Positions 1,287-43,589 of a stretch of DNA of 64,000 nt are shown here, one piece after another (position 1 is the stretch's first letter; each line of letters opens with the position of its first letter). A model generated the notes under the pieces. That model was not told where the DNA came from. It saw nothing but the letters and a program-made list of their open reading frames with translations, and made no database searches. The position numbers and the translations under genes are program-made. The stretch comes from Naegleria gruberi. Its lineage: Eukaryota. Location: the NCBI GenBank assembly GCA_000004985.1, contig GG738911.1; one strand, written 5' to 3'.

Positions 1287-2489
1287 ATGCAAACACTTCT
1301 CTTAGATCAATCATTTCAATCCAATTTACTCTCCACTAAAATCAGAGACATTCCTCACCATTTAAAATACCAAACAATCATAGCTCCGATCGTCTCCGGA
1401 GGTTCCGAACATTTAAAGGAAACCATTAAATTTCTCGATACAAGACGAGATTGGTTTACAATTCTCAAATTTATGAATGAACACAATTCGGGTCATAATC
1501 CATTCAGCAATGTTTCCATCAGTTCATTGGGATTTAAATATTCACTAAGTAGCCGCCATGAATTATTTGAAATTTACATCAATTTGGGAAAGGAATTGAA
1601 ATTTGATTCAAATTTTATATTTCAAATAGTTGGAATTAGTCCTGGATTTATTTATAATAATTCTAATGAAGTTATTAGAAATGATAGAGAAGTTGTGTTG
1701 AGATCTGTTAAGGGAGTTGGTTCTATGCTTAGTATTGCTTCTGATAGATTGAAAGATGACAGAGAAATAGTTATGGCAGCTGTCAAGCAAGATGGTGGAA
1801 GTTTAAGATATGCAAATGATAGATTTAAGAGTGATAGAGAACTTGTCCTGTCAGCAGTCAAATCAAGTGGTCATGCTCTTCAATCCGTTCATGAATCATT
1901 AAGGAATGATAGGGAAATTGTAGAGTTGGCAATTTCACATTGTTGGTCATTTCTAGGGAGTGCAGGCGAGGAAATGAAAAACGACAGAGAAATTGTAATG
2001 AAGGCCGTAATGAGAAATGAACAAGGAAGTGCCTTTCAATATGCTAGCAGAGAATTGAAACTAGATAAGAAGTTTGTTTTGGAGGTTGTCAGAAAAAGTA
2101 AGGGATTTGCACTTGAATATGCTCTTGAAGAATTAATTAAGGATAGGGAATTTCTTGTTGAAATATTGGAAATTCCTGAAAGATCTTCCACGGCTATATA
2201 TTCTATAGCGAGATTTATTAAGGATGATAGAGATTTGATATTACTAACTGCTAAATATGATGGATTTATAATCAAATATATTAATGAGGAGTTTAAGAAG
2301 GATAAGGAGATTGTATTTGAAGCTGTCAGTCAAAATATCAATGTTTTTCAACATATTGACAAGTCATTAAGGGATGACAAGGAATTTGTGTTGAGATTGG
2401 CAAGGAAAAATTCAAAGATTATTCAATTTTTGACCAAATCAATGAAGAAAGATCATGAATTTATGTCTCAAATCAATAAATTGAAATAG
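1287..2489 (+). CDS. repeat protein with about ten ~25-aa tandem repeats of consensus D[RK]E[IVF]V[LM]xAVKxxGxxLxxAxxxLKx (DUF4116-like); copy 1 of a duplicated gene
   Basis: 400-aa ORF with an 'aaaaaaaATG' start context. The internal periodicity is visible in the translation (DREVVLRSVKG..., DREIVMAAVKQDGGSL..., DRELVLSAVKSSGHAL..., and so on). It is ~93% identical at protein level to the gene at 42357-43589 on the minus strand. Confidence 0.6.
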   Translation: MQTLLLDQSFQSNLLSTKIRDIPHHLKYQTIIAPIVSGGSEHLKETIKFLDTRRDWFTILKFMNEHNSGHNPFSNVSISSLGFKYSLSSRHELFEIYINLGKELKFDSNFIFQIVGISPGFIYNNSNEVIRNDREVVLRSVKGVGSMLSIASDRLKDDREIVMAAVKQDGGSLRYANDRFKSDRELVLSAVKSSGHALQSVHESLRNDREIVELAISHCWSFLGSAGEEMKNDREIVMKAVMRNEQGSAFQYASRELKLDKKFVLEVVRKSKGFALEYALEELIKDREFLVEILEIPERSSTAIYSIARFIKDDRDLILLTAKYDGFIIKYINEEFKKDKEIVFEAVSQNINVFQHIDKSLRDDKEFVLRLARKNSKIIQFLTKSMKKDHEFMSQINKLK

Positions 2490-2513
2490 ATTGATTAGTA
2501 AACTTGGTCAAAA

Positions 2514-2586
2514 CAGATACAAGAGGAATCGAACCTCTGACCTGCAGATTTGGAGTCTACTGCTCTCCCTGCTGAGCTACACATCT
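2514..2586 (-). tRNA. tRNA-Trp (anticodon CCA)
   Basis: The reverse complement folds as a cloverleaf:
- acceptor AGATGTG/TGTATCT, with three G-U pairs
- D arm GCTC-AGCAGGGA-GAGC
- anticodon stem GTAGA/TCTGC with loop CU-CCA-AA
- variable loop AGGTC
- T arm AGAGG-TTCGATT-CCTCT, a GGTTCGATTCC B box
- discriminator G
A TTTT run follows the 3' end, consistent with a Pol III terminator. Confidence 0.7.
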
Positions 2587-2759
2587 GTTAATTTGAAATT
2601 TAAAATATTTGAGTGTATGACAAAACTGGAAATCCATAGTAAATTTCAAAGTGCATCAAATTTTATTGTGTGACAGAACACAGTAGGGTGTTCTATCGAA
2701 TATTTGTAAATAAATTAAGTTTCTTAGGTTTCCATTAGGTGGTTAGAAGAGTAATATCT

Positions 2760-3806
2760 TTAAATATTTGCTGAAATACTACCATGATTGATTTCTTCAA
2801 AGGTGATACCTTCATTCTTCAAATATTCCAAAACGGCTGGCTTAATCTTTGGTCCCTTTTCATCAGAGTGATTACCTGCACCATAAATAATGGTCAACTT
2901 TGGTTGTTTTTCACCTCTCAATTTTTCAATTCTCTTCTTCAAAAAGTCCATAGCATTGTCAACATATTGACCATGCAAATCAATTTCCAAATCACCCTTA
3001 TCCTTATTCAAATGTTCAAACATTGTGTTGGCAGATTCTTGTTGATACTTCTTCATCAATTCTTGATGTTGTTTTCCTTCTTCAGACAATTGCTTAGAGA
3101 GACCACCATCACCACTTTCGTAGGCCTTCTTGGCTCTTTCGAAACAATCGGACATCAATTTAGATTCTTCGGAAATCTTCTTTTCCAATTCCTTGAACAT
3201 TTTCATAGCATCGGTATCATGTTCAACAAATTGATTTTCCTTGGCATCGAATTCCCAACCGTACTTCTTCAATTCGGCCATAATACGATCATAACAGGCC
3301 TTTGGATTGGCTGATTGTTCAATGGTAATATGCTTGGAATCATCATCAGAGTCTTTAACATTAATTCTTGATGAAGTTTCCTCTTGTAATTGCTTGATGG
3401 TTGAACCCTTTGGACCAATAATAAACTTGGCAATAACAGCAGGCTTGAGAACGAATGAATTAGTAGCTTCATCAAAGTTAGAGGCAGCAACAGATGGAGT
3501 AGTGGTAGTAGCCTTTGGTGGTTCGGCCACAGCCTTCTTCTCCTCAACTACAACATCAGTAGTCTTGATTGGTTCGGCTGGTTTGGTTACTTCTGGCTTT
3601 TTAGTTGGTTCTTCAACAATGGCAGGTTGTTCGGAAGCCTTAGTTGTAGTAGTGGCAGCAGCAGTTGTTGATGTACTTGTGGAAGTAGTGGCAGCAGTTG
3701 TTGTTGCTGGTTCCTTCTTGGTTTCTTCCAATCTCTTGTTATTATTCTTCGACTTGTTGTTGGTGGAGGATGAAGATTCCTTTTGTCCTGAAAAACAATT
3801 GCCCAT
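2760..3806 (-). CDS. N-myristoylation-signal protein with a KH domain, a DUF1771-like coiled region and a C-terminal Smr (small MutS-related) domain
   Basis: 348-aa ORF starting MGNCFSG, the MGxxxS myristoylation consensus plus Cys4. The KH core is 'IIGPKGSTIKQLQEETSSRI'. The C-terminus, 'IDLHGQYVDNAMDFLKKRIEKL...LTIIYGAGNHSDEKGPKIKPAVLEYLKNEGITFEEIN', matches the Smr pattern LDLHG...GxGxHS...IKPAV. The N-terminal T/A/S-rich tract is encoded by trinucleotide-like repeats. Confidence 0.7.
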   Translation of the reverse strand: MGNCFSGQKESSSSTNNKSKNNNKRLEETKKEPATTTAATTSTSTSTTAAATTTTKASEQPAIVEEPTKKPEVTKPAEPIKTTDVVVEEKKAVAEPPKATTTTPSVAASNFDEATNSFVLKPAVIAKFIIGPKGSTIKQLQEETSSRINVKDSDDDSKHITIEQSANPKACYDRIMAELKKYGWEFDAKENQFVEHDTDAMKMFKELEKKISEESKLMSDCFERAKKAYESGDGGLSKQLSEEGKQHQELMKKYQQESANTMFEHLNKDKGDLEIDLHGQYVDNAMDFLKKRIEKLRGEKQPKLTIIYGAGNHSDEKGPKIKPAVLEYLKNEGITFEEINHGSISANI

Positions 3807-4832: not shown

Positions 4833-7800
4833 ATGGCGCCAACAGCATCTGTGATTGGTGGAAGCAGTGCCATCATGTCTGAGTCAAATTCAACCTCGGA
4901 TAGTGGAAATAACTCAGATATGTCCAATACAATAGTACAACTGAAAAATAGGATTAGAGATGAGAGTTTTCACTTTTTATTTTCAATGCAGAGAAATGAA
5001 CGAATTAAGGGTAACAAGACATTCTCTTTCCTTTTGATATTTTATATTATATTCTTTTGGAGTTATATTTGGGCACCAGTGTTGAGCCCAACAGATTTTA
5101 ATTTTGGATTGTGGGGATCATGGATATTGACTGTGATTAATTATCCAACAACATATTCGCTGGATTTGATACCCTATGTTGGAGTGATAGTTTTGTCAGC
5201 ATTTAGTATGCTCTTAATAGTATCTTATTTTGTTATTTTTATAGTTAGTATTAGGGCTGTTAAGACCTCATCACAGTACGTGAAAAAGATTAAGAAATTC
5301 CTTAATTACTCATCGATGGCCATGCTATTGTTGGCCATTCCGATGGCTTTCATACTAACGAGTTTTGTGGATTGCGACCATGGCTATGGGCGGTCAAACT
5401 TACTAAGAGAAACAATCACGCTCTCTACTAATACTAACTCTCACTATGAAAACTTTCTATATCAGAATGGTGTAAAGAGTTCCAATTCTTCTATCAATCT
5501 AAATTCCTCACCTTCATCAACATTAACACTCAATAGATTTCCAGCTGAATCCATTGTGTGTTACACTCTTGGAAATACCATACTTGTAGCAGTGACACTT
5601 ACTTTCTATTTGATTTTAATATTCTTGACCGTCCTTTCTTCCACACTGATACCGAACTCTCATCCACTTAGCTATGCTCCAATGATTGTTGACAATCCTA
5701 TCTTTCTTCCATTATTTTTCGTTCTTCATTTGTTTGGTATTTTGATTCACTTTCTCATTCCACCTCATTTTTCCTTTATTAGATCAATAGTGCATGTGCT
5801 ATTTTCATTGGTGGGAATATGGTTTGTAAAGAGTAAGGTACCAATGATGAGGCGATTCGAGAATTCCATTGTTTCAGCTGTAGCCTTTGGTAAATTGGGA
5901 TCTTCTATTGGAGGAATTGTTTGTTCTTTAGCCAATAATTTACACGGTAATGAGTTAGGTGTTGGTCTTACTGGAATGACTATTGTACTAGTTTTAGTAT
6001 TTGCCTTGATTGGATATGTTACAATGGAGATTTATACGAGATATGTTATCAAGACGATAAAATCAAGATATTTAACTTTATTGGGAGAGGGTAGCTTGGA
6101 GAGAGAAGCTGGTGGCATTTTCCAACAATTGGAAGAACAAGAGAATGTTGAATTATTGGATTTGTATGGAAAGTTTGTAATGATGAGTAATGCTAAATCA
6201 TTCAGACTTTACAGAAAGGAAATTGTAACCAGTACAGATTTACAAGAGCTCATTGGATTTATCAGAGGCATTTCAACACAAAAAACTGTACAACATGTGA
6301 ATTTGTTGCTGACATCAGCAAGTTTGGTTGCTTATTTCATTCCAGACGAATCAAACTCGACTGTTTTTGCCAATGCCCTAATCAAGAGAGCCGTAAAGCA
6401 ACATCCAAGTACCTATTTCAAATACAAGATTGGCCAGAAAGCAAAGGAAGTTGAAGTTTATGCTTCGGAACAACTTCGAGGTGCAAAGAATATGATTGAA
6501 CTTAAATCAATTTTGAGAAATATTGAAAAACAAACTACAGAGCTTACCTCTCTTCATAGACACTACTTTAAAGAACTAATGCAAGGTATGTTATTGGTAT
6601 ATTTAATAATTACTAAATTACTTCTTAAAGAAATGATAAATTACAAAAAGGTAGAACAAATTCTTCATAGAGCAGCCGTTTTAACAGGGAGCTTGGATAG
6701 TATCTTTGATAATATTTTAAGATTATATTATAATGACAAAACTGTTTTAAGAACATATGCTTCATATATGGAGTCTTTTAAATTCAATAGAGAAATAGCT
6801 CAAGAATATTATGGTGAAGCAATGATGCTGGAAGATGAAGAGTCTCAGGCAGTTAGAAAGCCACCAACCTATATCACAGCTTTGAAAAAGAGATCTAATA
6901 CTGTAACTTCATTATCAGAATCAATTGTTGATACTGATAATTCGAGAAGAAAGATGTTAAACTCGGTAGCTTTCAATAACATTGTAAACGAGCTCAGCGA
7001 ACCATCTGTGGCTAGTATTGAAAACTTTGAGGGTATAGAAAATCAAAACGAAGCTAAAAGAGAGCTGGTTTACAGAACAGCATTAGAAAGTCACGGTTCT
7101 AGAGCCATGCCATTGATATTTTTCAGTGTGTTTATCCTTTTTTCGCTTGCTTTGATAGCTGTCGGTTTGGGTGTTGGTTATTCTTTCAGTTTAGCTGTCA
7201 CTGAAAATGTGGTAAATGTTATTGATGCATGTTCTCCAATAGCTTCCCTTACCAATCTTATTATTACCTTGAGAGGATTCCAGGCAACTCAAAATTTGTT
7301 GGATATGGGTGTTACTTTGCAACCAACATTAACCAATAGAATTTATTCTGATATGACAAATACCAAATCTACTGTTAAAACTTTGGCTCAACTCTTGACA
7401 AATTTACAACAAAAAGCATATGACGCCAAGTTAACAGAATTGGTTTATTCTAGATATCATGAATATTATTATACTATTCTAATACCTTTGGCTTCAAATA
7501 GGTCAAGTATCTCAGAAAAGTTTTATTTCGCTACTACAGAACAGAATGTTACCATAACAGATATTAACAATGTTCTGCTCAAAATTACTACTCAATTATT
7601 GACAGCATCGAAAGAGGATTTGATGAAAACAGTGTCCAGTTATGAGTACATGTATCTCTACAGAAATCAAGAAAAAATCACAAGAGCTTATTCTGATTTT
7701 TGTAAAATATTCATGATTTCAGCCAAAGATGATGCAGTAACAATTAACACAATATTTACATATTACATTTCCTTTTCATTGAGTGTATATATAGTCTTTG

Positions 7801-10116
7801 GATTTATTTTCTTAATAATTCAATATAGATATTTATCTGGTGTTAAGAAACAAATCAAACTAATGCAAGAAAATGTATCCAAGAATGAAATTGGTAAATT
7901 ATTCCATGATTTGGGAAAGAAAGTAAGCGATGATACTCATTTGAGGGCTTCCAGGAATGCTTTATTGACACCAAAAAACTTGTTTTCTTTGTTTGGATTT
8001 TTAACCATTGTAATTGTTTCAATTTGTTGTGGTATTTACTTGAGTGAAACTTTAGGAAATTCTACATACAGTTTTGAATCATACGTTACCATGGAAGATG
8101 GTTTTGATGCCATGTCATACTTACAGCATACCACATTTGCAATTTCAGAGGTATTTATTCATGCTGTGAATGCAAAGTTCAATGTCAGTGAGAGCAGTTA
8201 TGCTCTTCTTGGGAATAGTGATATTGAACTAATGGCCACTGGATTTACAACTACTGTGAAATCATTGAGATACTATTGGAATTTATGTATGTATGGATCG
8301 GCTGTAAAGGCCTATGAAACCCTTGTTGTGGGAATGTTTACTGAAACAGATGACATGATAAGAGGAGAGGTTAATTGTGATATCGAGGCTTCTTTAAAGA
8401 CTTTTGAAAAAATCAAATCCTCTGGAAATTCTACAACTTATTGTAAAATGGGTGTTGACTACATGGTACAAGATATTATTCTAAAATGTTCTAATTTGAA
8501 AGAGGATATCAAGACCTTACCGCAACTGAGCAATTTCAAATCTACTAGCTTGAATTTTTTCAATGAGTTTTATAGTATTGCCTATCTTACCAATGCAGTG
8601 TCTATGAAATTGATAGATTTCTCAAATGTTTTTGCTGTTAAATCCGCCACTCCAAGAACAGAACAAATGATTTCTTTAGCGATTATTGCCTTGATTTTGA
8701 GTTCCACCTTTTTCGGTATAATGTACTATTCTATTGATACCTATTGGAAAGATTCTCATATTGCAAGATCATTATTTAACTATCTTTCAATTGATACATT
8801 GGAATCCAATGAAATAATTAAGAATTACGTTCTCTATCACACCACAAATGATGGTATTAAGAGAAAGAAGAAGAGCACTGAAGAATCCAAAGTGAATGCC
8901 ATTTTGAATGCTGCAGTTGATGGAGTTGTTGTTTGTGATGCTCAATTCTGGGTAAAGAGTTTCAACCCAGCTGCTTCCAGAATGTTTGGAGCTCAACAAG
9001 AAGAGTTTGTGAATAAGCCAATCTATTGTTTGATGACTCCTTGGTTCCATGACGATGTTCGTAAATTCCTGAATGCTTCCAAGAACAATACTAGTCTCAA
9101 TGACGCCAAATCAGCATCATTTGAAGTGGATTGTGTCAGAACAAATCTTTCAACATTCTCAGCAAGAATTAACCTTTTCATTACCGTTTTTGATAAGAAA
9201 CCAATTGTTACATGTTTCATTAAGGATATTACTTCAGAGAAGAAGCACAACTCACTTCTTCAAGAAGAAAGAAAGCACTCTGAAGATCTCTTGCTTAACA
9301 TTTTACCAAGTGCTGTTGCCACAAAATTGAAAGGAGGAGCCAGCTTGATTGCTGAGAAATTCCCAGATGTAACATGTTTCTTCTCTGATATGGTTGGATT
9401 TACGGCATTATCTTCTAAAATGGGTCCTAATGACCTAGTTCAAATGTTGAATACTATTGTTATTGGATTTGATGATTTAATGGATGTTTATCACCTTGAA
9501 AAGATTAAAACTATTGGTGATGCCTATTTCTGTGCAGGGTATGTTGTTTATATTAATTAATATATACTAATAATTATTCAGAGGTCTTCATGATTTGAAT
9601 GCCCAATCTGATCACCCTGAGAGAACTTTGAGATTTGCTATTGATACATTTGGAGTTATTAGAAATTATAACTTGAAATTTAGAAGAAACAATTTGAAGG
9701 AACAAATTAACATTAGAATTGGTATTAATACTGGGCCAGTTGTTGCTGGTGTCATTGGACGTAAGAAGTTTGCCTACGATTTGTGGGGTGACTCTATTAA
9801 TACAGCCTCTAGAATGGAATCAAATTCCAAGCCAGGAAGAATTCAAGTTTCCAGATCTACTTATGAAAGAGTTTTTGATTTAGGACTTGTTTTTGAGGAA
9901 AGAAAAATTGAAGTGAAAGGAAAGGGAATGTGTCAAACCTATTTGTTGGATGCTAAGCACCATACATCTGCTATAATTACAGAAGAGGATGTAAAAAACT
10001 CTGCTGATAAAGAAACCAAATCTGAGATTGCTGCACACACCGCTCCAATTGATAATCACGAATTGGAGATTGAGTTAGTACCAAAAACACCAAAAGGTGA
10101 AGTTGAAAATCAATAA
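4833..10116 (+). CDS. multi-pass membrane class III adenylyl cyclase with a PAS domain
   Basis: Two exons: join(4833..9538, 9582..10116). The intron at 9539-9581 runs gtatgt...ttattcag, is phase 2, and joins '...IGDAYFCAG' to 'GLHDLNAQSD...'. Two hydrophobic clusters of about 6 TM each lie at aa 60-400 and ~750-1180. A PAS-like segment is 'AVDGVVVCDAQFWVKSFNPAASRMFG'. The cyclase core is 'FFSDMVGFTAL...KIKTIGDAYF...IRIGINTGPVVAGVIG...YDLWGDSINTASRMES'. The specificity positions read Lys (KIKTIGDAY) and Asp (YDLWGDS), the adenylyl-type pair. More 5' exons cannot be excluded. Confidence 0.75.
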
Positions 10117-10293
10117 ATTATTAGGATTTTATTTCTATTAGAATTAAAATACTAACCAATTGAAGAACAACCACTCTCATCATCGAATTTAACATTTACA
10201 ATTTCAAAATTGATTAATGATTTTTATTAAATTGTGTCACCTCAAATTGCTTTAGTCTTTTTATGTCCTCTGCATCAAAATGAAATGCTTCGT

Positions 10294-11766
10294 CTACTTT
10301 TCTCTTCTNNNNNNNNNNNNNNNNNNNNNNNNNNNNNNNNNNNNNNNNNNNNNNNNNNNNNNNNNNNNNNNNNNNNNNNNNNNNNNNNNNNNNNNNNNNN
10401 NNNNNNNNNNNNNNNNNNNNNNNNNNNNNNNNNNNNNNNNNNNNNNNNNNNNNNNNNNNNNNNNNNNNNNNNNNNNNNNNNNNNNNNNNNNNNNNNNNNN
10501 NNNNNNNNNNNNNNNNNNNNNNNNNNNNNNNNNNNNNNNNNNNNNNNNNNNNNNNNNNNNNNNNNNNNNNNNNNNNNNNNNNNNNNNNNNNNNNNNNNNN
10601 NNNNNNNNNNNNNNNNNNNNNNNNNNNNNNNNNNNNNNNNNNNNNNNNNNNNNNNNNNNNNNNNNNNNNNNNNNNNNNNNNNNNNNNNNNNNNNNNNNNN
10701 NNNNNNNNNNNNNNNNNNNNNNNNNNNNNNNNNNNNNNNNNNNNNNNNNNNNNNNNNNNNNNNNNNNNNNNNNNNNNNATTGATAGAGGGATTCTTTGGT
10801 AATGTTCACATTTGTTTGAGGCGAATTGGATTGATTAGGAATATTATTAACATGTGATGTAAAATCTCCCAAAGGAACTTGTTTTTGTTGGAATAATTGT
10901 TGTGGATTATTTTGAGGGGATTGGTTGTAAACCATTTGATTCTGGTTCACCTTAAAGTTATCCATGTTCATTTGTTGAGATGGTTTTTGTGGAGAGAATG
11001 TTCCTTGATTGAAGAATTGAGTGTCTGGAGAATGTGAATGTTGCATCGAACCATTGGGTATGTTCTTGTCCATTGTTGCAGATTGGTAATTGGTATTATT
11101 TTGGCCATTACCGTTGGTGCTATTGTTAAGCATCATGTTCATGTTATTTCCATTAGATGGAACTTTTTGATTCATTTGATTCATCACTTGTGTTTGATTC
11201 ATTCTTGTCGGAGATGCCATCATTTGATTAAAGTTCTGTTGTTGTGGTTGCTTTTGGAGGAATGTATTATTTGGATTGTTATTACTGGTGTTTGCATTAG
11301 ATCCTCCTCCATTATTTAAAGAGGTAGTAGGTAAGGTATTATGGAAATCAAAGGATTGATATTGTTGTTGCGGAGTTAACTCATCATTATATGATTGGAA
11401 GAGTCTATCATTTTCTAAATTAACCTTATTCGAGACCGAGGCATGGATCATTTGTTGTTGATGAATGTTATTCATCATGTTTTGGGAAGCCTTTTGGTAG
11501 TGGTTTTGAGGAGAGTGGAGATTATTCATTACGTTGTTAGAATTACTCGTATAGTTGTTGGTGTTATTCATGTTCGATAAATGGAGATTGTTATTAATAT
11601 TGTTATTTGTATTATTATTGTTTTGGAGGTGATGATGATAGGAGGATGAAGAACCTTGTTGATGTTGTTGTTGAGACGTGTTATTGTTCGAGGAGGAGCT
11701 ACTAAGGGATAATTGAGGTGGTAGTTTTAAGAGTGGATTATGATGACCTTGTTCCATCGAAGACAT
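10294..11766 (-). CDS. Gln/Asn-rich low-complexity (prion-like) protein. The 3' part is interrupted by the assembly gap.
   Basis: ORF starts at the ATG at 11764-11766 (MSSMEQGHHNPLLKLPP...) and runs into the N-gap. Composition is dominated by N, Q and S, encoded by AAT/CAA-type repeats. I recognise no domain. Confidence 0.4.
   Translation of the reverse strand: MSSMEQGHHNPLLKLPPQLSLSSSSSNNNTSQQQHQQGSSSSYHHHLQNNNNTNNNINNNLHLSNMNNTNNYTSNSNNVMNNLHSPQNHYQKASQNMMNNIHQQQMIHASVSNKVNLENDRLFQSYNDELTPQQQYQSFDFHNTLPTTSLNNGGGSNANTSNNNPNNTFLQKQPQQQNFNQMMASPTRMNQTQVMNQMNQKVPSNGNNMNMMLNNSTNGNGQNNTNYQSATMDKNIPNGSMQHSHSPDTQFFNQGTFSPQKPSQQMNMDNFKVNQNQMVYNQSPQNNPQQLFQQKQVPLGDFTSHVNNIPNQSNSPQTNVNITKESLYQXXXXXXXXXXXXXXXXXXXXXXXXXXXXXXXXXXXXXXXXXXXXXXXXXXXXXXXXXXXXXXXXXXXXXXXXXXXXXXXXXXXXXXXXXXXXXXXXXXXXXXXXXXXXXXXXXXXXXXXXXXXXXXXXXXXXXXXXXXXXXXXXXXXXXXXXXXXXXRREK
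10309..10778. other. assembly gap (470 N)
   Basis: Run of N. Confidence 0.95.
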
Positions 11767-14328: not shown

Positions 14329-14480
14329 GTTGCTCTCTAGGATTTCTCAATCTTATTGAAAACAAATATTCGAGTGTTTTCAATAACTCAATTTTGATTA
14401 TTTCGGCAAATAAACAACAAAAATGTAAATAACCGATTCAGTTTTAATATGTTGTTTAAAAAGTTTATTAGTTAAATAAT

Positions 14481-29820: not shown

Positions 29821-29907
29821 TCCGATTATACGGAATCGAACCGCCGACCACAGGATAACAGTTTTTCTTGCTACAGTCCCATGCTCTACCAGCTGAGCTA
29901 TCATCGG
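29821..29907 (-). tRNA. tRNA-Tyr (anticodon GUA) with a 14-nt intron after position 37
   Basis: The reverse complement folds as:
- acceptor CCGATGA
- TA
- D arm GCTC-AGCTGGTA-GAGC
- A
- anticodon stem TGGGA
- loop CU-GUA-G, then intron [CAAGAAAAACTGTT] (29857-29870), then A
- anticodon stem TCCTG
- variable loop TGGTC
- T arm GGCGG-TTCGATT-CCGTA
- acceptor TAATCGG
- discriminator A
There are two G.A mismatches, at 6:67 and 49:65. A T-run (TCTTTTTA) follows the 3' end. Confidence 0.6.
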
Positions 29908-32917: not shown

Positions 32918-33257
32918 TAAACCAGTACTTTACAATTTTATTAAATATATTTAAAGATGATTACAAAAAAAATGCAAACCCAACAAGAAGGAGCCAATAA
33001 TTGGAAACGAATCATCCTGTTGTTAATCTTGCTCGTTCCTGCCCAGCTATTTATTTATTACTATTATTATTATTTCATCGGAAGATGAAGGCTTTAAATT
33101 TTCATCATCATTAAAATCGGCTGATGAAGAAATTAAAACAATAATCAGTGATCAGCATCATCTTAATGTTGTTGATAAGTTAATATTACTTTCCAATTTT
33201 TCTACTTGTTTTAATTCAGCATCAGCATCGGAAGGAAAATTAATTCTACAAAAATTG

Positions 33258-35699
33258 ATGAATGAACGAAAGAAGCCTTCAAATCATCACAATCATCATA
33301 CTTTGGAATCATTGAGGGAATTATTAAAATTATTAATCGAATTTAAATATTATCATCATTACGATCATGATGATGAAAGAGCGAATGATAACAAATTGCT
33401 CAATGAACATTCAAGAATGATGATGGAAAGAATTGAATTCCCTCTCCGAATTTATGTTTATCCACTGAGTGAAAATGGAAAGCAAATGTATGAGAGAACT
33501 ATAGACATGTGTAAGAATCATTCCTTTGATAATGAGGAAATGACCTTCTTTCCACATGCCTATATTGATTGCTATTTAATTGATTTTATCATGTTGAATA
33601 CTTCTAATTACTATGATGGAAATTTGATAAAAAGAGTGAATAATATTGAGGAGGCAAATATTGCATACATTCCAATTCCTCTCGTAATGAATTTCTATGA
33701 TAATATTAAAAAGGAGGGAGAGAAGGATTTTCTAAACTTGACAGAAAAGATTAAATCTGATTTTTACAATGAAATGATTTACAATACTGAAATGGAAGAT
33801 AATTTTGAAAAAGTTCCACATTTTGTAACGTATTCCTTTGTTTCGTATAGACTTTCATTTAGTGGAATTCCAAAACAGGTTAAAATTGTAACGTTGGAAA
33901 ATGTGGCAATTAGTGGTTCACCACAGAATGCTTGGTATGATAATGGATGTCAAGATAGATGCCTCACCATTCCATATGCAACCATTTTTGATTGGCCATC
34001 AGCATATAATGAAAGTTCTAACACTCTCTATGCAGAGGATTATACACACAATTGGAAGAATAGACCCTATCTTCTCTCATTCATTGGTTCATTGAATAGA
34101 ACTGAAATTCTATTCACTCATAGATATCATCTTGTGACCAAGTTGAGCGAATTCAGAGGTAGATATTTTCATACATTCAAGGAATCAATTTCTACGAGTA
34201 GTAATATTGAAATTTATGGAAAATCCAAATTTTGTTTACAACTTCATGGAGATACACCAACTAGAAATGCATTCTATGAATCCTTGCTCATGGGTTGCAT
34301 ACCAGTCATTACTGAGAAGACATTTATTAGTTATCGATCACTTTTTGGATATTTATTACCAGTTGAGGAATTTACAATTGTAATTGATAACAAGTATGCT
34401 GAAGAACATGTTCCTGTAAAGGAAATTATTGAGAGATTGAATCAAATTGATAGGAATGGTGAATATTTGAGAATGTTGAACATTTTCAAATCCATTTCCT
34501 TTTTCCTTCGATACAAACATGCTCAATCATCAAATCTACTTGCTATTCTATCTATCTTGAGTGCACAGATACCACTTTCAATTCCTCCAAGATATAACAA
34601 TCGTCCCAGAGATGAACAACATGACAATTTTAATCCTATTGATATATTTATGGGAAGACCAATTGAAAAAGTTTACAAGTGGATGAATTTATCAATTCCT
34701 AAATTTAACATGACAATGAAAATGGAAAATTGTGGAGAATTTACTTGTAAAATTTACATTCCACAATTCTATCATGAATTAACAATTGATTCCCTATCAA
34801 CACATAATAGCATTGATCATTTACCAACTCTAATGGAATTTGCACTTATTCAACGATTGAAGAATGAAAATATTCTCACCAGCAATACTGAACATGCCAA
34901 TTTGATATTCTATCCATTTAATCTCAATGTGATATTCAATCAACATGTATTGGATCAACAAGTGAAACAAGTTGGAATTCAGAAGAAGGGATTTCTCATT
35001 AGCAACAACACTGGAAATGAACAAATACCAAAAATTATTGAAAATCTAAACAAAATTCAATCCATTTTCAATAATTTCACCATTTATACATTATCACCAC
35101 ATGCAATTGAGCAAAAGAATGTGAAAACTCTACCATTCACAACCATTGAACTTTTTGATTCCAATTTCCATCAAATTTCCACTTCTTTCAATAGAAATTC
35201 TCTACTTTGTCAATTAATTGAAGAAAATTTCAATGGGGAGGAAAATCAAATTGCGGAAATGTTGGAAATTCACTTTGGAAATGATTATCCACATTTATTC
35301 TCTAAAAAGGTCAATTCGATCGAATTACTGAACTGTACCTATGTCATCATGTCAAATGTAAATCCATCAAAATTATTACATCAATCAATTCGACATGGCT
35401 CAATACCCATTTCTTTAAATTCCAATAATCAGGACCTTAATGCATTATTACCACATCAAGTTATTGATCGATCTCAAATAATTCTTGAAATTCCAAAACC
35501 AATTCAAAAACTTTACAAAAATTTGGAATTTTTCTCAAATTGGCTGATTCGATTTTTACAAAATATTTCACATGAAGAAATTCAAGCAAGAAGACAAGCA
35601 ATGACAAAGTTAAAAAGTTATTTTAATTTATCGAATGAAAAACATGGTGGTAAATATGATTTAGCTGATCTTGTCTTGTGTTCCCTTAACTGTCACTAA
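33258..35699 (+). CDS. exostosin-like GT47 glycosyltransferase with two tandem GT47-like domains
   Basis: The first ATG is at 33258 (the track start 33255 is TTG). Domain 1 has 'ANIAYIPIPL' and 'SKFCLQLHGDTPTRNAFYESLLMGCIPVI', matching the exostosin motif S(K/R)FCLxPxGDxxxSxRxF(D/E)xxxxGCIPV. Domain 2 has 'ANLIFYPFNL' and 'CTYVIMSNVNPSKLLHQSIRHGSIPISLN'. No N-terminal TM is seen, so a 5' exon may be missing. Confidence 0.6.
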   Translation: MNERKKPSNHHNHHTLESLRELLKLLIEFKYYHHYDHDDERANDNKLLNEHSRMMMERIEFPLRIYVYPLSENGKQMYERTIDMCKNHSFDNEEMTFFPHAYIDCYLIDFIMLNTSNYYDGNLIKRVNNIEEANIAYIPIPLVMNFYDNIKKEGEKDFLNLTEKIKSDFYNEMIYNTEMEDNFEKVPHFVTYSFVSYRLSFSGIPKQVKIVTLENVAISGSPQNAWYDNGCQDRCLTIPYATIFDWPSAYNESSNTLYAEDYTHNWKNRPYLLSFIGSLNRTEILFTHRYHLVTKLSEFRGRYFHTFKESISTSSNIEIYGKSKFCLQLHGDTPTRNAFYESLLMGCIPVITEKTFISYRSLFGYLLPVEEFTIVIDNKYAEEHVPVKEIIERLNQIDRNGEYLRMLNIFKSISFFLRYKHAQSSNLLAILSILSAQIPLSIPPRYNNRPRDEQHDNFNPIDIFMGRPIEKVYKWMNLSIPKFNMTMKMENCGEFTCKIYIPQFYHELTIDSLSTHNSIDHLPTLMEFALIQRLKNENILTSNTEHANLIFYPFNLNVIFNQHVLDQQVKQVGIQKKGFLISNNTGNEQIPKIIENLNKIQSIFNNFTIYTLSPHAIEQKNVKTLPFTTIELFDSNFHQISTSFNRNSLLCQLIEENFNGEENQIAEMLEIHFGNDYPHLFSKKVNSIELLNCTYVIMSNVNPSKLLHQSIRHGSIPISLNSNNQDLNALLPHQVIDRSQIILEIPKPIQKLYKNLEFFSNWLIRFLQNISHEEIQARRQAMTKLKSYFNLSNEKHGGKYDLADLVLCSLNCH

Positions 35700-39168: not shown

Positions 39169-39987
39169 TTAATTGGCCTTCTTGGCAACCTTCTTAGCAG
39201 CAACCTTCTTGGCAGACTTTTTAGCTTTCTTGGCCTTCTTGAGCTTCTTCAAAGCATTCTTGCAAGCGTTTCTCTTGGTCAAGTTCTTGGCCTTCTTGGC
39301 ACATCTTCTCAACTTTCTGAGTTTTCTGAGTTTCTTCAATGCTTTCTTACAGGCATTTCTCTTCTTCAAGGATTTAGCCTTCTTTGCGCATCTCTTCAAC
39401 TTTCTGAGCTTTCTAATTCTCTTCAATGCCTTCTTACAAGCCTTCTTCTTCTTCAAATTCTTTGATTTCTTGGCACATCTTCTCAATTTTCTGAGCTTTC
39501 TGAGTTTCTTCAATGCCTTCTTGCAAGCCTTTCTCTTCTTCAAATTCTTTGATTTCTTGGCACATCTTCTCAATTTTCTGAGTTTTCTGACTCTTTTCAA
39601 AGCCCTCTTGCATGCCTTTCTCTTCTTCAAAGATTTAGCCTTCTTGGCACATCTCTTCAACTTTCTAACTCTCTTAGCCTTCTTTGATTTCTTGGCAGAC
39701 TTCTTTGACTTTTTACATTTCTTCTTTAATTTGAGTTTCAATTTGCGAACCTTTGATCTGAGTTTCTTGACTCTCTTGGCAAGTTTAGCACATTTCTTTG
39801 ATTTCTTAGCCTTCTTCCAAGTCTTCTTTGGCTTTGTAGCCTTCTTGTTGGTAGTTGAAGTCTTCTTTACAATTGATGATGATTTGACGGCTTGAGTTTC
39901 GGCTTGTTCAGCAGATGCGAAAGAAACGCAACATGCCAACAATGCGAGCAACAACAAGGAGAGAATAACCCACTTGCCACTATTCAT
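39169..39987 (-). CDS. secreted polycationic repeat protein, paralog 2, with about 4.5 repeats of a 29-aa unit 'CAKKSKNLKKRKACKKALKKLRKLRKLRR'
   Basis: Start at the ATG at 39985-39987. The signal peptide 'MNSGKWVILSLLLLALLACCVSFASAEQAETQ' is homologous to paralog 1. The mature protein is more than 50% K+R with two Cys per repeat. The coding repeats have an 87-bp period. Confidence 0.6.
   Translation of the reverse strand: MNSGKWVILSLLLLALLACCVSFASAEQAETQAVKSSSIVKKTSTTNKKATKPKKTWKKAKKSKKCAKLAKRVKKLRSKVRKLKLKLKKKCKKSKKSAKKSKKAKRVRKLKRCAKKAKSLKKRKACKRALKRVRKLRKLRRCAKKSKNLKKRKACKKALKKLRKLRKLRRCAKKSKNLKKKKACKKALKRIRKLRKLKRCAKKAKSLKKRNACKKALKKLRKLRKLRRCAKKAKNLTKRNACKNALKKLKKAKKAKKSAKKVAAKKVAKKAN
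39258..39651 (-). repeat. 87-bp coding tandem repeat (~4.5 units) inside the polycationic gene
   Basis: Units recur at an 87-bp period, for example 'ttcttcaatgctttcttacaggcatttct' at ~39328 and near-copies at ~39415 and ~39502. The array boundaries are approximate. Confidence 0.6.
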
Positions 39988-40646
39988 TTTGTATGTTTTT
40001 TTTTGGATGATGAATGAGAACTTTCTAGTAGAGAGAAATAGCACTCGTGTCATGCAGATTCGTTAATTGTACTACGATTTTTGAAGTGAAATGACAAGTT
40101 GACTCGATTGATTTCCCGCCAAACGAACTACTCTTTTACAACGTTCGTATATGGAAGGCAGCTTCAATTTGGTATCATCGTTGGATAATACAAAATTATC
40201 AATGAATGTTAATTTTTATTATCATGGTTACAATTACAATGTATGAAATATTAAAGAGTTTTACAGTTTGTTCAGTCAATAAGTCCAATTACTCCATTCA
40301 CTACAAGCGACAATTCTCATCTTTGCATCTCTTATTAAACTGTATTGTAAAGTATTAACAATATTAAGCCACATTTATAAATCCCTTATTTGGTCAATAT
40401 TCCGAATCATCAAAATAAAACCCTCAACAAATGCACATTAAACAATCGTGAGAGTGCGCACTCAAGCCACTGAGCTGAAATTAACCAACACTTCTCAAGC
40501 GCAACCTTTATTTTCACATTTGTGCGTACTCACAAATCCTATTCATCTCATCTATTAAGCAAGGCTGTAAAATGCCATGAACTTTCAGTAGACAAAAACT
40601 CTCAAACAAATATTGAAAAAAACAAGCCGATTTGAAAACTAGCAAA

Positions 40647-42272
40647 ATGAATACTACTATCGAAACATCATTTATTAATGTTGCTGCTGCTTCTTCTTCT
40701 TCAACACCTTCATCATCTTGGAAGGAAATCTTGATGAATGCTTATAAGAATGGACAAACTAATGTTACCGATCAAATAAGTTATGCTCTTAATTGCTTAA
40801 TTAAGCAACTTCATAAGATTTTAACCGTCACTCATCAAAAGAAAGGTCCTTTATTTAATAAGATGTTGGTTTCTTCTTTCACTGCACAAAATTTGATTGA
40901 TTGCATTTGTAAAGTCTTGTTGGAAACTTCCACAAGTGACAAGTTGGCAGATTACATTGGTCAATTGATGGTTCAATTGAATATGATTGAATTTGATTGT
41001 CAAAATAAGAATTCCACTAGATTATCTGATGATAGAAAGAGATTGGTTCGTTTCTTACATCCATACATGCCAAGATTGGTTATCATTGGAGGTGGACATT
41101 CTGGAGTATTGACAGCTTGTCAGTTAAATGATTATTTCTCTATTGTTTTGATTGACAAGAATCCACATTGCACTTTAAAGCCGGCATTTCCAGTAATTCT
41201 AGAGAAAGTTGATCATGTTAACAAGATTTCTATCAATTACTCTGAAATTCTCCCTTCAAATGTCACTTTCATTCATGGGTTGACCAAAATAGTGAGACAG
41301 GATGGTGTCTTTATTGAAATTGCTGGAAAAGAGCCACAAATCAAGCACATGTTGACAAATGAATATTCAGATTCCAACACAGATGTAAGAAATTGTAAAT
41401 TCCTTTCCTTTGATTATTTGGTCATCGCCACAGGTTGCAATGGTTGGAAAAATGTTCCACAAATGGAAAATCCTCAAAAGGAAAACAAGATTTTATATGT
41501 TGATGGTTATAACATGGACATGGTCGAGTTGTCAGTCACTGCCATTAATCAATCCAATCATGATATTGTTGTAATTGGAGGTGGAAGTGTCGGATGTGAA
41601 TATTTTGGATCACTAGCTCAAACTTTCCCAAATAGGAATTGTTATTTAATTCAAAGATCTGACATGTTAATGAAACCATCCAAAGATGCTCACAAGGCAG
41701 CAACTGATACATTTGCCAAGATGAAGAATGCAAATGTCAAATTTAATTGTCAAGTTGATCGTCAAGAAGATTCGAATATTCTTGTTGTAAAGTCATTGGA
41801 AAGTGGAGAAGAAACAAGAATCAAGTGTTGTGTTTGCTTCCTTGCCTCAGGTATCTCACCAAACACTAAAATGATGAATGAATACTTTGGAGAAAGCATG
41901 GACGAAAATAATTATCTGAAAGTGAATCCTTCCTTCCAATTATGGAAATCTAATTCTGAGTATTTTAACAATATTTTCGTTTTGGGAGATGCCAATAATG
42001 CTGATACTGAAAAACTAATTCAAAATGCAGATATTCATGCTGAGAAATTTGTTGAAATTGCCAAATCTATTCTAAAGGTTTCGTCTCCCAACTCAAATGA
42101 AGGTATTTTAGCAACGTATGATAATGCTCCTCGTGTGATGGCTGTTTCACTTGGTCCTAAAACTGGTTTCTTAATGAAAGATAACAAGATCATGTTCAAA
42201 TCTGGCGTTGTAAACAAATTGAAATCTGCCATTCAAAATTCAACTCTAAAAACCTACAAAAAATTTCAATAA
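40647..42272 (+). CDS. FAD/NAD(P)-binding pyridine-nucleotide-disulfide oxidoreductase-family protein (AIF/FSP1-like) with an N-terminal extra domain
   Basis: The first ATG is at 40647 (the track start is TTG). Two Rossmann dinucleotide motifs are 'LVIIGGGHSGVLTACQL' and 'VVIGGGSVGCEYFGSLA'. A C-terminal 'VLGDANNAD' resembles the FAD-binding GD motif. Confidence 0.55.
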   Translation: MNTTIETSFINVAAASSSSTPSSSWKEILMNAYKNGQTNVTDQISYALNCLIKQLHKILTVTHQKKGPLFNKMLVSSFTAQNLIDCICKVLLETSTSDKLADYIGQLMVQLNMIEFDCQNKNSTRLSDDRKRLVRFLHPYMPRLVIIGGGHSGVLTACQLNDYFSIVLIDKNPHCTLKPAFPVILEKVDHVNKISINYSEILPSNVTFIHGLTKIVRQDGVFIEIAGKEPQIKHMLTNEYSDSNTDVRNCKFLSFDYLVIATGCNGWKNVPQMENPQKENKILYVDGYNMDMVELSVTAINQSNHDIVVIGGGSVGCEYFGSLAQTFPNRNCYLIQRSDMLMKPSKDAHKAATDTFAKMKNANVKFNCQVDRQEDSNILVVKSLESGEETRIKCCVCFLASGISPNTKMMNEYFGESMDENNYLKVNPSFQLWKSNSEYFNNIFVLGDANNADTEKLIQNADIHAEKFVEIAKSILKVSSPNSNEGILATYDNAPRVMAVSLGPKTGFLMKDNKIMFKSGVVNKLKSAIQNSTLKTYKKFQ

Positions 42273-42356
42273 ATAAATTTAATAAAATCAATTATTTGAA
42301 TTCCTCTTCAAGTTTTCTGTTTGAATTTCTTGTAATTTTTACCGAAAGTTGACTGT

Positions 42357-43589
42357 TTAGTTTAGTTTATTGATTTGAGACATGAATTCATGATCTTTCT
42401 TCATTGATTTGGTTAAAAATTGAATAATCTTTGAATTTTTCCTTGCCAATCTCAACACAAATTCCTTGTCATCCCTTAATGACTTGTCAATATGTTGAAA
42501 AACATTGACATTTTGACTGACAGCTTCAAATACAATCTCCTTATCCTTCTTAAACTCTGGATTAATATATTTGATTATAAATCCATCATATTTAGCAGTT
42601 AGTAATATCAAATCTCTATCATCCTTAATAAATCTCGCTATATAAAATGTACTCGTGGAAGATCTTTCAGGAATTTCCAATATTTCAACAAGAAATTCCC
42701 TATCCTTAATTAATTCTTCAAGTGCATATTCAAGTGCAAATCCCTTACTTTTCCTGACAACCTCCAAAACAAACTTCTTATCTAGTTTCAATTCTCTGCT
42801 AGCATATTGAAAGGCACTTCCTTGTTCATTTCTCATTATGGCCTTCATTATAATTTCTCTGTCGTTTTTTATTTCCTCGCCTGCACTTCCTATAAATGAC
42901 CAACAATGTGAAATTGCCAACTCTACAATTTCTCTATCATTCCTTAATGATTCATGAACGAATTTAAGAGCATGACCACTTGATTTGGCTGCTGCCATTA
43001 CTATTTCTCTATCACTCTTAAATCTATCATTTGCATATCCTAAACTTCCACCATCTTGTTTGACAGCTGCCATTACTATTTCTCTGTCATCTTTCAATCT
43101 ATCAGAAGCAATACTAAGCATAGAACCAACTCCCTTAACAGATCTCAACACAACTTCTCTATCATTTCTAATAACTTCATTAGAATTATTATAAATAAAT
43201 CCAGGACTAATTCCAACTATTTGAAATATAAAATTTGAATCAAATTTCAATTCCTTTCCCAATTGGGCACCAATTTCGAATGCATTTTGGCGGTAATATG
43301 CTAATGAATATTTAAATCCCAATGAACTGATGGAAACATTGCTGAATGGATTATGACATGAATTGTGTTCATTCATAAATTTGAGAATTGTAAACCAATC
43401 TCGTCTTGTATCGAGAAATTTAATGGTTTCCTTTAAATGTTCGGAGCCTCCGGAGATGATCGGATCTATGATTGTTTGGTATTTTAAATAATGAGGAATA
43501 TCTCTGATTTTAGTGGAGAGTAAATTGGATTGAAATGATTGATCTAAGAGAAGTAATACTTGTAAAGGTGGTGTTTGTTGTGCTTGCAT
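42357..43589 (-). CDS. DUF4116-like ~25-aa tandem-repeat protein; copy 2, the inverted near-identical duplicate of 1287-2489
   Basis: The track ORF extends to a TTG at 43673, but the first in-frame ATG, at 43587-43589, gives 'MQAQQTPPLQVLLLLDQSFQSNLL...', collinear with copy 1. Sampled DNA stretches show a few mismatches per 60 nt against the reverse complement of copy 1. Confidence 0.6.
   Translation of the reverse strand: MQAQQTPPLQVLLLLDQSFQSNLLSTKIRDIPHYLKYQTIIDPIISGGSEHLKETIKFLDTRRDWFTILKFMNEHNSCHNPFSNVSISSLGFKYSLAYYRQNAFEIGAQLGKELKFDSNFIFQIVGISPGFIYNNSNEVIRNDREVVLRSVKGVGSMLSIASDRLKDDREIVMAAVKQDGGSLGYANDRFKSDREIVMAAAKSSGHALKFVHESLRNDREIVELAISHCWSFIGSAGEEIKNDREIIMKAIMRNEQGSAFQYASRELKLDKKFVLEVVRKSKGFALEYALEELIKDREFLVEILEIPERSSTSTFYIARFIKDDRDLILLTAKYDGFIIKYINPEFKKDKEIVFEAVSQNVNVFQHIDKSLRDDKEFVLRLARKNSKIIQFLTKSMKKDHEFMSQINKLN

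What the first reader, a model, noticed from the sequence alone, without database searches (positions are those of the whole stretch)
1287..43589. Two near-identical copies of a 1.25-kb repeat-protein gene in inverted orientation bracket ~40 kb
Genes 1287-2489 (+) and 42357-43589 (-) encode proteins about 93% identical. Even spurious antisense ORFs are conserved between them (1652-1861 against 42985-43194), so the duplication is recent and at DNA level. Homology extends about 90 bp upstream of the ATG and stops at the stop codon. In copy 1 an in-frame TAA just upstream of the annotated ATG ends what is an N-terminal extension in copy 2. As inverted repeats about 41 kb apart, the copies are a substrate for recombination-mediated inversion of the intervening ~17 genes.
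Basis: seen in the sequence. Interest (0 to 1): 0.5.

Follow-up and report, generated by a model that had tools for sequence, protein, structure and literature searches.

The report
Recent inverted gene duplicate in Naegleria
Two about 95%-identical copies of a helical-repeat (DUF4116) gene of unknown function lie head-outward about 40 kb apart in the Naegleria gruberi genome; this is a real but ordinary young gene duplication, and nothing shows that the DNA between the copies ever flips.

Summary
Window 1175-2489 (+) and 43696-42357 (-) align over 1341 columns: 93.0% identity counting gaps, 94.6% counting substitutions only. Synonymous sites are far from saturated (dS 0.09, dN/dS 0.47).

The window is Naegleria gruberi. 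Both genes are already annotated there as "predicted protein" (400 and 410 aa), and a third paralogue (76% identity) sits on another scaffold. Both carry 7-9 DUF4116 repeats, and the model of copy B is an alpha-solenoid with no solved relative.

Both copies start at the same ATG. Copy A has lost 9 codons after codon 3. The "N-terminal extension" of copy B is only an open frame in the 5' leader.

Differences are clustered in short hypervariable patches. Outside them both copies are under purifying selection (dN/dS 0.19).

A metagenome contig from a close relative (97.8% identity) carries an A-type 3' end, so the duplication predates that split.

Two caveats apply. A 470-N scaffold gap (10309-10778) lies between the copies, so their relative orientation rests on scaffolding. 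Inversion is possible in principle but entirely untested.

A 13-nt direct repeat flanking the A-type unit remains unexplained.

The parts
1175..2489 (+). Copy A of the duplicated unit: 112-nt 5' flank (1175-1286) plus an intronless CDS 1287-2489 (400 aa, DUF4116 repeat protein). It equals the public N. gruberi 'predicted protein' P0001.
42357..43696 (-). Copy B of the unit: CDS 43589-42357 (410 aa, equals public model P0002) plus a 107-nt 5' flank (43590-43696).
1172..1184 (+). GTAAACTTTACAA at the 5' edge of the homology. AACTTTACAA is shared with copy B (43696-43687). It is part of the palindrome TTGTAAACTTTACAA (1170-1184). The same 13-mer recurs 9-21 nt after the stop codon of the A-type copy in the close relative (L003).
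2498..2505 (+). GTAAACTT, the remnant of the 3' copy of the 13-nt direct repeat in this strain. It lacks 11 nt that L003 has.
1548..1583 (+). Main hypervariable patch (alignment codons 97-109, including a 1-codon indel). Ten of 13 codons differ between A and B, and the third paralogue differs from both. In the model of copy B it falls in the low-confidence segment 77-116.
42991..43085 (-). In copy B the 20-mer AGAGAAATAGTAATGGCAGC occurs twice, 75 nt (one 25-aa repeat) apart, at 43085-43066 and 43010-42991. Copy A differs at both places. I read this as intragenic micro-conversion between adjacent DUF4116 repeats after the duplication.
2513..2587 (-). tRNA-Trp(CCA), 23 nt beyond the stop codon of copy A. 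It is not part of the repeat and is present at the same place in the close relative.
1..1107 (-). Divergent upstream neighbour of copy A (ATG at 1107, runs off the window, no Pfam match). The ATG-to-ATG spacer is 179 nt, of which the repeat covers 112.
43780..45741 (+). Divergent upstream neighbour of copy B: a GT10 fucosyltransferase. The ATG-to-ATG spacer is 190 nt, of which the repeat covers 107.
10309..10778 (.). Scaffold gap (470 N) between the two copies. No gene bridges it with evidence, because the cyclase gene ends at 10116. The relative orientation of the copies therefore rests on this join.

Best explanation
This is a young DNA-level duplication of a single gene unit in the Naegleria gruberi lineage. 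The unit comprises about 110 nt of promoter/leader plus the intronless CDS of a lineage-specific DUF4116 alpha-solenoid protein. Its two copies now lie about 40 kb apart with their 5' ends pointing outward.

Shown: both copies are intact and both have evolved under purifying selection outside a few short hypervariable patches. Small-scale events account for part of the clustered differences, namely a 9-codon N-terminal indel, a 1-codon indel and an intragenic micro-conversion between neighbouring repeats.

Inferred: both copies are functional genes. The copies could in principle recombine to invert the intervening segment, but this would leave every gene intact and there is no evidence it happens.

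Not settled: which copy is the parent, and the copying mechanism. A 13-nt direct repeat around the A-type unit hints that A is the inserted copy.
For: - Identity and boundaries.
- Divergence: dS 0.092, dN 0.043, dN/dS 0.47, which is below 1 (Fisher p=0.007). Outside the patches dS is 0.071 and dN/dS 0.19.
- The purely synonymous differences (16 codons) are spread along the gene by eye, with no formal test.
- The organism and both public gene models are identified, and a third paralogue lies on another scaffold.
- Pfam DUF4116 scores 250.7 and 323.7 bits against a cut-off of 24.9. The AF2 model of copy B is an alpha-solenoid with pLDDT above 90 over residues about 140-410.
- Independent contig L003 (97.8% identical) carries KH-Smr, tRNA-Trp and the last 110 codons of an A-type copy. 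At all 15 A/B differences in that stretch, L003 agrees with A. The two copies were therefore already distinct before that lineage split, and A has not been overwritten by B since.
- Micro-conversion in copy B.
- N-terminal deletion in A, polarised with the third paralogue.
Against: - Differences are strongly clustered (CV-squared of spacing 2.96 against 0.92 in random placements; 0 of 5000 placements reach it). In the patches both dS and dN are very high (0.47 and 0.77, though the patches were defined post hoc). Simple point-mutation divergence does not explain this.
- The sharp coincidence of the boundaries with the gene limits is not explained by a random segmental duplication.
- Expression of either copy was not testable.
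- The relative orientation rests on a scaffold gap. The KH-Smr gene on copy A's contig is inverted relative to the conserved GATA-like/WLS block on copy B's contig when compared with N. fowleri and N. lovaniensis.
Confidence: 0.8

Rival explanations
1. The two genes are older paralogues whose bodies have been homogenised by gene conversion, so the high identity reflects concerted evolution rather than a recent duplication.
For: Identity stops almost exactly at the gene limits. Differences are mosaic, with long identical runs (188, 94, 86 and 85 nt) between very divergent patches. Micro-conversion does occur in this gene.
Against: - The 112-nt non-coding 5' flank is included, and identity falls abruptly rather than gradually at 1175.
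- The purely synonymous differences are spread along the gene by eye.
- In the 334 columns covered by the close relative, every A/B difference is A-specific in both strains. No B-to-A conversion has therefore happened since that split.
- The flanks show no residual old homology.
Confidence: 0.08
2. One copy is a processed, RNA-mediated retrocopy. The shared region runs from about the transcription start to about the end of the message, and the 13-nt direct repeat is a target-site duplication.
For: Homology is limited to leader plus CDS. Both copies are intronless. A 13-nt exact direct repeat, GTAAACTTTACAA, flanks the A-type unit (5' edge in this strain, 3' flank in L003; 0 of 2000 shuffles reach it).
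Against: - There is no poly(A) tract at the 3' end of either copy.
- There is no clearly shared 3' UTR.
- Ten of the 13 repeat bases are also present at the 5' edge of copy B, so the repeat is not a pure target-site duplication.
- No reverse-transcriptase gene was seen among the ORFs scanned in the window.
- Intron loss cannot be scored, because neither copy nor the third paralogue shows an intron.
Confidence: 0.06
3. The contig carrying copy A is mis-oriented in the scaffold, so the copies are direct rather than inverted repeats. Recombination would then delete or duplicate the interval rather than invert it.
For: A 470-N gap at 10309-10778 separates the contigs and no gene bridges it. Relative to N. 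fowleri and N. lovaniensis, KH-Smr (on copy A's contig) is flipped with respect to the collinear GATA-like/WLS block 13130-16686 (on copy B's contig).
Against: Paired-end scaffolding of a contig longer than 10 kb is usually reliable (general knowledge). Synteny with those species is otherwise poor: the intervening genes differ, and there is no tRNA-Trp or DUF4116 gene next to KH-Smr. A real lineage-specific rearrangement is therefore at least as likely.
Confidence: 0.07
4. The pair is an active recombination substrate, and the 40-kb segment exists in both orientations in N. gruberi populations or clones.
For: The 1.3-kb inverted repeats have identical runs of up to 188 nt. From general knowledge, such low-copy repeats mediate inversions in yeast and humans.
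Against: No data on orientation polymorphism are available. From memory of the yeast inverted-repeat assays of Datta, Jinks-Robertson and colleagues, about 5% mismatch suppresses mitotic homologous recombination strongly. The 3' part of A shows no exchange with B since the split from the close relative, although that part would move with the segment and so is uninformative.
Confidence: 0.05

Closest known systems
DUF4116 (Pfam PF13475) repeat proteins of protists, bacteria and giant viruses
   Same: Both copies match the family far above its gathering score with 7-9 repeat stretches. The repeat period is about 25 aa with a D-R-E-[IV]-V core. The predicted fold of copy B is an alpha-solenoid, as a contact-based model predicted for the family (PMC8078820).
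   Different: An N-terminal region of about 130 aa outside the repeats is shared at high identity only with one other N. gruberi protein (P0003). The nearest other homologues are 35% identical or less, mostly over the repeat region only. No function is known for any member, and there is no solved structure.
Low-copy inverted repeats that mediate inversions by non-allelic homologous recombination (for example human int22h/F8, or inverted paralogue pairs in yeast)
   Same: Two kb-scale inverted copies bracket tens of kb of unique genes.
   Different: No inversion has been observed here. The copies are 5% diverged with at most 188 nt of perfect identity. The orientation is inferred across a scaffold gap.
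Other young paralogue pairs in the same window (GT10 fucosyltransferases 23209-25068 and 43780-45741; tandem pair 60500-61737 and 62030-63301)
   Same: All are lineage-specific gene-sized duplications in the same 64 kb.
   Different: Those pairs are direct repeats and older (about 80% nucleotide identity). The A/B pair is inverted and about 95% identical.

Membership tests
DUF4116 (PF13475) repeat protein | Match to the Pfam profile above its gathering score, in several tandem stretches | tested here: met
   250.7 bits (7 stretches) and 323.7 bits (9 stretches) against a cut-off of 24.9
DUF4116 (PF13475) repeat protein | All-helical solenoid architecture of the repeat region | tested here: met
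   AF2 model of copy B: pLDDT above 90 over residues about 140-410, regular short helices. No significant PDB match, best Foldseek E=0.0057. This is a prediction only.
Recent DNA-level gene duplication | Nucleotide identity with unsaturated synonymous sites, extending into non-coding flank | tested here: met
   dS 0.092. In the 112-nt 5' flank, 103 of 111 aligned bases are identical.
Recent DNA-level gene duplication | Two distinct loci with unique flanks, not a collapsed repeat or an allelic haplotig | tested here: met
   The flanks are unrelated. The copies differ at 71 sites. Each lies more than 1 kb inside contiguous sequence. The 3' junction of copy A is reproduced in independent contig L003.
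Inverted-repeat pair capable of NAHR inversion | Copies in inverted orientation on one molecule | tested here: inconclusive
   They are inverted in the scaffold, but a 470-N gap lies between them and outgroup synteny flags the orientation of the left contig.
Inverted-repeat pair capable of NAHR inversion | Both orientations of the interval observed | not testable with these tools
   No reads or alternative N. gruberi assemblies could be reached. Two metagenome pattern scans found nothing.
Processed retrocopy | Poly(A) tract at the 3' end of the copy | tested here: not met
   There is no A-run after either stop codon.
Processed retrocopy | Target-site duplication flanking the insert | tested here: inconclusive
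   A 13-nt direct repeat surrounds the A-type unit, but 10 of its 13 bases also occur at the 5' edge of copy B.
Processed retrocopy | Loss of the parent gene's introns | not testable with these tools
   Both copies are single uninterrupted ORFs equal to the public models, and DNA of the third paralogue could not be fetched.
Concerted evolution by gene conversion | Evidence of sequence exchange between the copies after their divergence | tested here: not met
   In the 334 columns with an outgroup strain, 15 of 15 A/B differences are shared by A and A'. The purely synonymous differences are spread along the gene by eye. This covers only the last quarter of the gene.

The most novel reading that the evidence does not exclude
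The DUF4116 gene unit may be a self-contained cassette that was copied by a motif-directed event. Its 5' edge is exactly the sequence AACTTTACAA in both copies. The A-type copy is bracketed by a 13-nt exact direct repeat, GTAAACTTTACAA. The same 8-mer core lies upstream of the third DUF4116 gene in the window. This could mark a microhomology- or site-directed insertion mechanism, through template switching or a circular intermediate, that spreads such genes in Naegleria. The resulting inverted pair could then also flip the 40-kb interval.
Probability: 0.06. Interest if true: 0.5.

Novelty: new member of a known kind. Interest (0 to 1): 0.15.

Why it matters
It matters little beyond bookkeeping. 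The finding documents one more young, lineage-specific paralogue pair of an uncharacterised repeat family in a published protist genome. It corrects the reading of the N-terminus and flags a scaffold join that should be checked.

If the 13-nt direct repeat turned out to mark a directed copying mechanism, or if the 40-kb interval were found in both orientations, it would give a small, tractable example of structural genome dynamics in a free-living heterolobosean. Mitotic or meiotic recombination in that group is poorly documented.

Tried and rejected
- **Fetching N. gruberi DNA around the paralogues.** Exact-protein look-ups for P0001, P0002, P0003 and P0121 were all "not on record". The third paralogue could therefore be used only as protein.
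- **Synteny test at the right junction.** The pyridine-nucleotide oxidoreductase gene (40632-42272) has no Naegleria orthologue in the database. Its best relative (40%) sits among unrelated genes.
- **Synteny test at the left junction.** KH-Smr orthologues in N. fowleri, N. lovaniensis and an environmental heterolobosean are followed by a T4-type RNA ligase gene, not by tRNA-Trp, a DUF4116 gene or L0. This gave no polarity for parent and daughter copies. It showed only that KH-Smr is flipped relative to the conserved GATA-like/WLS block.
- **Two degenerate-pattern scans of JGI metagenome contigs** for the conserved N-terminal region of the subfamily found nothing.
- **3' flank homology.** Local alignments give p of about 0.016-0.045, with inconsistent registers between A and A'. 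I treat this as unproven.
- **5' flank similarity beyond 1175.** It is only the shared A-rich context of the neighbours' start codons (CAT followed by a T-run), not homology.
- **Asymmetric evolution.** Copy B has 13 derived residues against 6 in A, which is not significant (binomial p=0.17).
- **Bacterial-type promoter/terminator scan.** It is irrelevant for a eukaryote and only re-found the tRNA T-arm.
- **Searches of solved structures** by sequence and by fold gave no meaningful relative.
- **Literature.** Only four papers mention DUF4116 and none gives a function. Nothing was found on segmental duplications in N. gruberi.


Full report

Yes. A self-comparison of the window gives one strong inverted match, 1175-2488 against 43696-42358, at 92.99% identity over 1341 columns with E=0. 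The repeat finder splits it at two indel sites into ungapped arms of 936 nt (95%), 253 nt (96%) and 83 nt (98%). A global alignment has 71 substitutions and 27 gap columns, which is 94.6% identity when gaps are left out. The longest perfectly identical runs are 188, 94, 86 and 85 nt.

The ORFs 1287-2489 (+, 400 aa) and 43589-42357 (-, 410 aa) are intact.

**2. What and whose are the genes?**

The 400-aa product is 100% identical to a public "predicted protein" of Naegleria gruberi (P0001). The 410-aa product corresponds to a second public model (P0002, 92% identity to A) recorded on a contig of the same length, 261,328 bp. A third paralogue (P0003, 324 aa, 76% identity to A) is on a different scaffold. 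All other homologues are 35% identical or less over more than half of the query (sequences).

Both proteins match Pfam DUF4116 (PF13475) at 250.7 and 323.7 bits, against a cut-off of 24.9, in 7-9 stretches. An AlphaFold2 model of copy B, built with 60 homologues, has mean pLDDT 82. Residues about 140-410 form a regular alpha-solenoid (pLDDT above 90), and the N-terminal 130 residues or so are poorly defined. No PDB chain matches by sequence, and none matches convincingly by fold: the best Foldseek E-value is 0.0057, with TM-scores below 0.35. The literature holds only a contact-based prediction of an alpha-solenoid for the family and no function.

**3. Age and mode of divergence**

Nei-Gojobori estimates are dS=0.092, dN=0.043 and dN/dS=0.47. 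The ratio is below 1 (Fisher p=0.007).

The differences are strongly clustered. The squared coefficient of variation of their spacing is 2.96, against 0.92 for random placement, and 0 of 5000 random placements reach the observed value. They concentrate at alignment codons 97-109, 196-201, 209-210, 313-316 and 344. Outside these 26 codons dS is 0.071 and dN/dS is 0.19, which indicates purifying selection on both copies. Inside them dS is 0.47 and dN is 0.77, although the patches were chosen post hoc.

At least one patch has a mechanistic explanation. In copy B a 20-mer is present twice, exactly one 25-aa repeat apart (43085-43066 and 43010-42991), where copy A differs at both places. This indicates micro-conversion between adjacent repeats within B. 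The largest patch (A 1548-1583) also differs in the third paralogue and lies in the low-confidence segment 77-116 of the model of copy B. It is therefore a fast-evolving, probably unstructured stretch. The purely synonymous differences (16 codons) are spread along the gene by eye, which argues against a mosaic of old and recently converted tracts.

**4. The N-terminus**

Both genes start at the homologous ATG (1287 and 43589). Copy B has 9 additional codons after codon 3, and there is a 1-codon indel further in. The third paralogue is intermediate in length at this end, so the shorter A more likely results from a deletion in A. This N-terminal stretch aligns poorly, so the inference is tentative.

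The in-frame TAA at 1266-1268 is real, and the corresponding frame is open in B up to a TTG at 43673. However, that stretch is the shared 5' leader with a 1-nt indel between the copies, and the public model of B begins at 43589. It is not an N-terminal extension.

**5. Boundaries and surroundings**

The 5' boundary is sharp, at 1175 and 43696. It lies 112 and 107 nt upstream of the ATGs. Both copies sit head-to-head with an unrelated gene. An ORF without a Pfam match has its ATG at 1107 on the minus strand. A GT10 fucosyltransferase starts at 43780. The unit has thus taken about 60% of a 180-190-nt divergent intergenic spacer.

The similarity a little further out is only the T-run that follows both neighbours' start codons on this strand. 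At the 3' end, identity decays in the last 9 nt or so of the CDS. After the stop codon there is only weak similarity (p=0.045, 0.016 and 0.017 in three tests, with inconsistent registers).

Copy A is followed after 23 nt by a tRNA-Trp(CCA) gene on the other strand and then by a KH-DUF1771-Smr gene. Copy B is followed after 84 nt by the end of a pyridine-nucleotide oxidoreductase gene.

Between the copies I count about 20 protein-coding ORFs and 2 tRNAs. They include a PAS adenylate/guanylate cyclase, a Wntless-like protein, a CNNM transporter, a third and distant DUF4116 gene (26% identity), a second GT10 gene, an eEF1A-like GTPase, a trypsin-like protease, a GT47 enzyme and a desaturase.

**6. 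An independent view from a close relative**

The KH-Smr protein has a 98%-identical counterpart on a 2591-bp ENA metagenome contig, L003. L003 aligns to window 4740-2156 at 97.8%. It carries KH-Smr, the tRNA-Trp gene and the last 110 codons of a DUF4116 gene.

Over 334 shared columns there are 5 differences between A and A', 15 between A and B, and 20 between A' and B. At all 15 A/B differences, A' agrees with A. Three conclusions follow:
- The A-side junction is not an assembly artefact.
- The duplication is older than the split of these two lineages, by roughly threefold on these counts.
- A has not been overwritten by B in this part since that split.

**7. An unexplained detail**

In L003 the 3' flank holds 11 nt that this strain lacks. 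As a result, GTAAACTTTACAA lies 9-21 nt after the stop codon. The same 13-mer forms the 5' edge of the unit in this strain (1172-1184). None of 2000 dinucleotide-preserving shuffles reaches a 13-nt match. This strain retains GTAAACTT at 2498-2505.

The repeat looks like a target-site duplication or a microhomology junction, and it would make A the inserted copy. However, ten of the 13 bases (AACTTTACAA) are also the first bases of homology in copy B, and B's 3' flank holds a degenerate version, GGTAAAAATTACAA. The motif may therefore instead be a regulatory element present at both ends of the ancestral gene.

The 10-mer with up to one mismatch is about threefold over-represented in the window, with 43 matches against 15.2 expected. 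The exact 8-mer CTTTACAA occurs within 150 nt upstream of a long ORF's ATG only at the three DUF4116 genes. I could not resolve this.

**8. Mechanism and rivals**

The best-supported account is a DNA-level copy of a single promoter-plus-CDS unit, with both copies retained under selection.
- Gene conversion of older paralogues is disfavoured by the sharp non-coding boundary, the spread of the synonymous differences and the A' result.
- Retroposition is disfavoured by the absence of a poly(A) tract and of a shared 3' UTR. The direct repeat keeps it alive at low probability.

**9. The inversion idea and an assembly caveat**

Both genes have their 5' ends outside and their 3' ends inside the interval. 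A crossover would therefore invert 2.5-42.3 kb and swap the 3' parts of two in-frame genes, breaking nothing. This is inference from the geometry.

Nothing available here can show either orientation state. N. gruberi DNA could not be fetched, and metagenome scans were empty.

The window also contains a 470-N scaffold gap at 10309-10778 between the copies. The cyclase gene ends at 10116, so no gene bridges the gap.

Compared with N. lovaniensis and N. fowleri, window 13130-16686 (a GATA-like gene and a Wntless-like gene) is collinear and in the same orientation as in both species. KH-Smr, on the other side of the gap, is flipped relative to that block. Synteny is otherwise poor, so a real lineage-specific rearrangement is the more likely cause. 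Even so, the join should be checked against the nanopore re-assembly reported in PMC12695648. If the left contig were mis-oriented, the copies would be direct repeats.

**10. Verdict**

This is a real, correctly spotted, young inverted gene duplication of an uncharacterised alpha-solenoid family in a published genome. It is ordinary in kind. Its interpretation as a recombination substrate is untested, and one small anomaly (the 13-nt flanking repeat) remains. Interest is low.

Noticed in passing
window 10309-10778, 54163-54212, 59707-59978: Three runs of N (470, 50 and 272 nt) are scaffold gaps. Several ORFs listed across 10234-10857 are artefacts of translating N. The first gap separates the two copies.
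   Followed up: partly
window 23209-25068 (+) and 43780-45741 (+): A second, older paralogue pair: GT10 fucosyltransferases, 74% aa identity and about 80% nt identity over 1.48 kb, in direct orientation. Each lies next to a DUF4116 gene (21259-23115 and copy B), but those two DUF4116 genes are only 26% identical.
   Followed up: partly
window 60500-61737 and 62030-63301: Tandem duplication of about 1.3 kb at 80.6% identity covering ORFs 60714-61703 and 62201-63265. The two ORFs scanned had no Pfam match.
   Followed up: partly
window 2760-3806 against 13130-16686; L004, L005: Relative to N. lovaniensis and N. fowleri, the KH-DUF1771-Smr gene is inverted with respect to the conserved GATA-like/Wntless-like block. 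The T4-type RNA ligase gene that follows KH-Smr in three other heteroloboseans is absent from the window.
   Followed up: partly
window-wide; exact sites 1175, 21228, 27800-27809(-), 35509, 43687-43696(-), 57438-57447(-): AACTTTACAA with up to one mismatch occurs 43 times against 15 expected. At 1170-1184 it forms the palindrome TTGTAAACTTTACAA between two divergent genes. It may be a promoter-type element of N. gruberi.
   Followed up: partly
window 29821-29907 (-): Rfam finds a second tRNA (40.2 bits, 87 nt) that ARAGORN did not report. It may be intron-containing or a long-variable-arm tRNA.
   Followed up: no
window 48094-48831 (+): This ORF is made of six repeats of about 120 nt (69-94% identity to the reference copy) and matches FRG1-like and fascin domains, suggesting a beta-trefoil repeat protein.
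   Followed up: no
window 39204-39723: An 87-nt tandem repeat (at least four copies, 75-77% identical to the first) lies inside overlapping ORFs on both strands (39169-40053 on the minus strand, 39173-39895 on the plus strand). The minus-strand ORF has no Pfam match.
   Followed up: no
window 51900-53800: A very AT-rich stretch (GC 18% over 52001-54000) of AAT-type codon repeats lies inside ORFs 51532-52149 and 52195-53835, which would encode asparagine-rich low-complexity protein.
   Followed up: no
window 4833-10116 (+): A large PAS-domain adenylate/guanylate cyclase gene appears split by a short intron at about 9561-9594. The cyclase domain continues from profile position 65 in the first ORF to position 71 in the second.
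   Followed up: partly
L003 (ENA ERZ929261, contig k127_90471): A metagenome assembly contains DNA 97.8% identical to N. gruberi NEG-M over 2.6 kb, so a close relative of the sequenced strain is present in that sample. It could be mined for more of this locus.
   Followed up: partly
window 33255-35699 and 49247-50695: Two exostosin-like GT47 genes lie in the same 64 kb as the two GT10 genes, making the region rich in glycosyltransferases.
   Followed up: no
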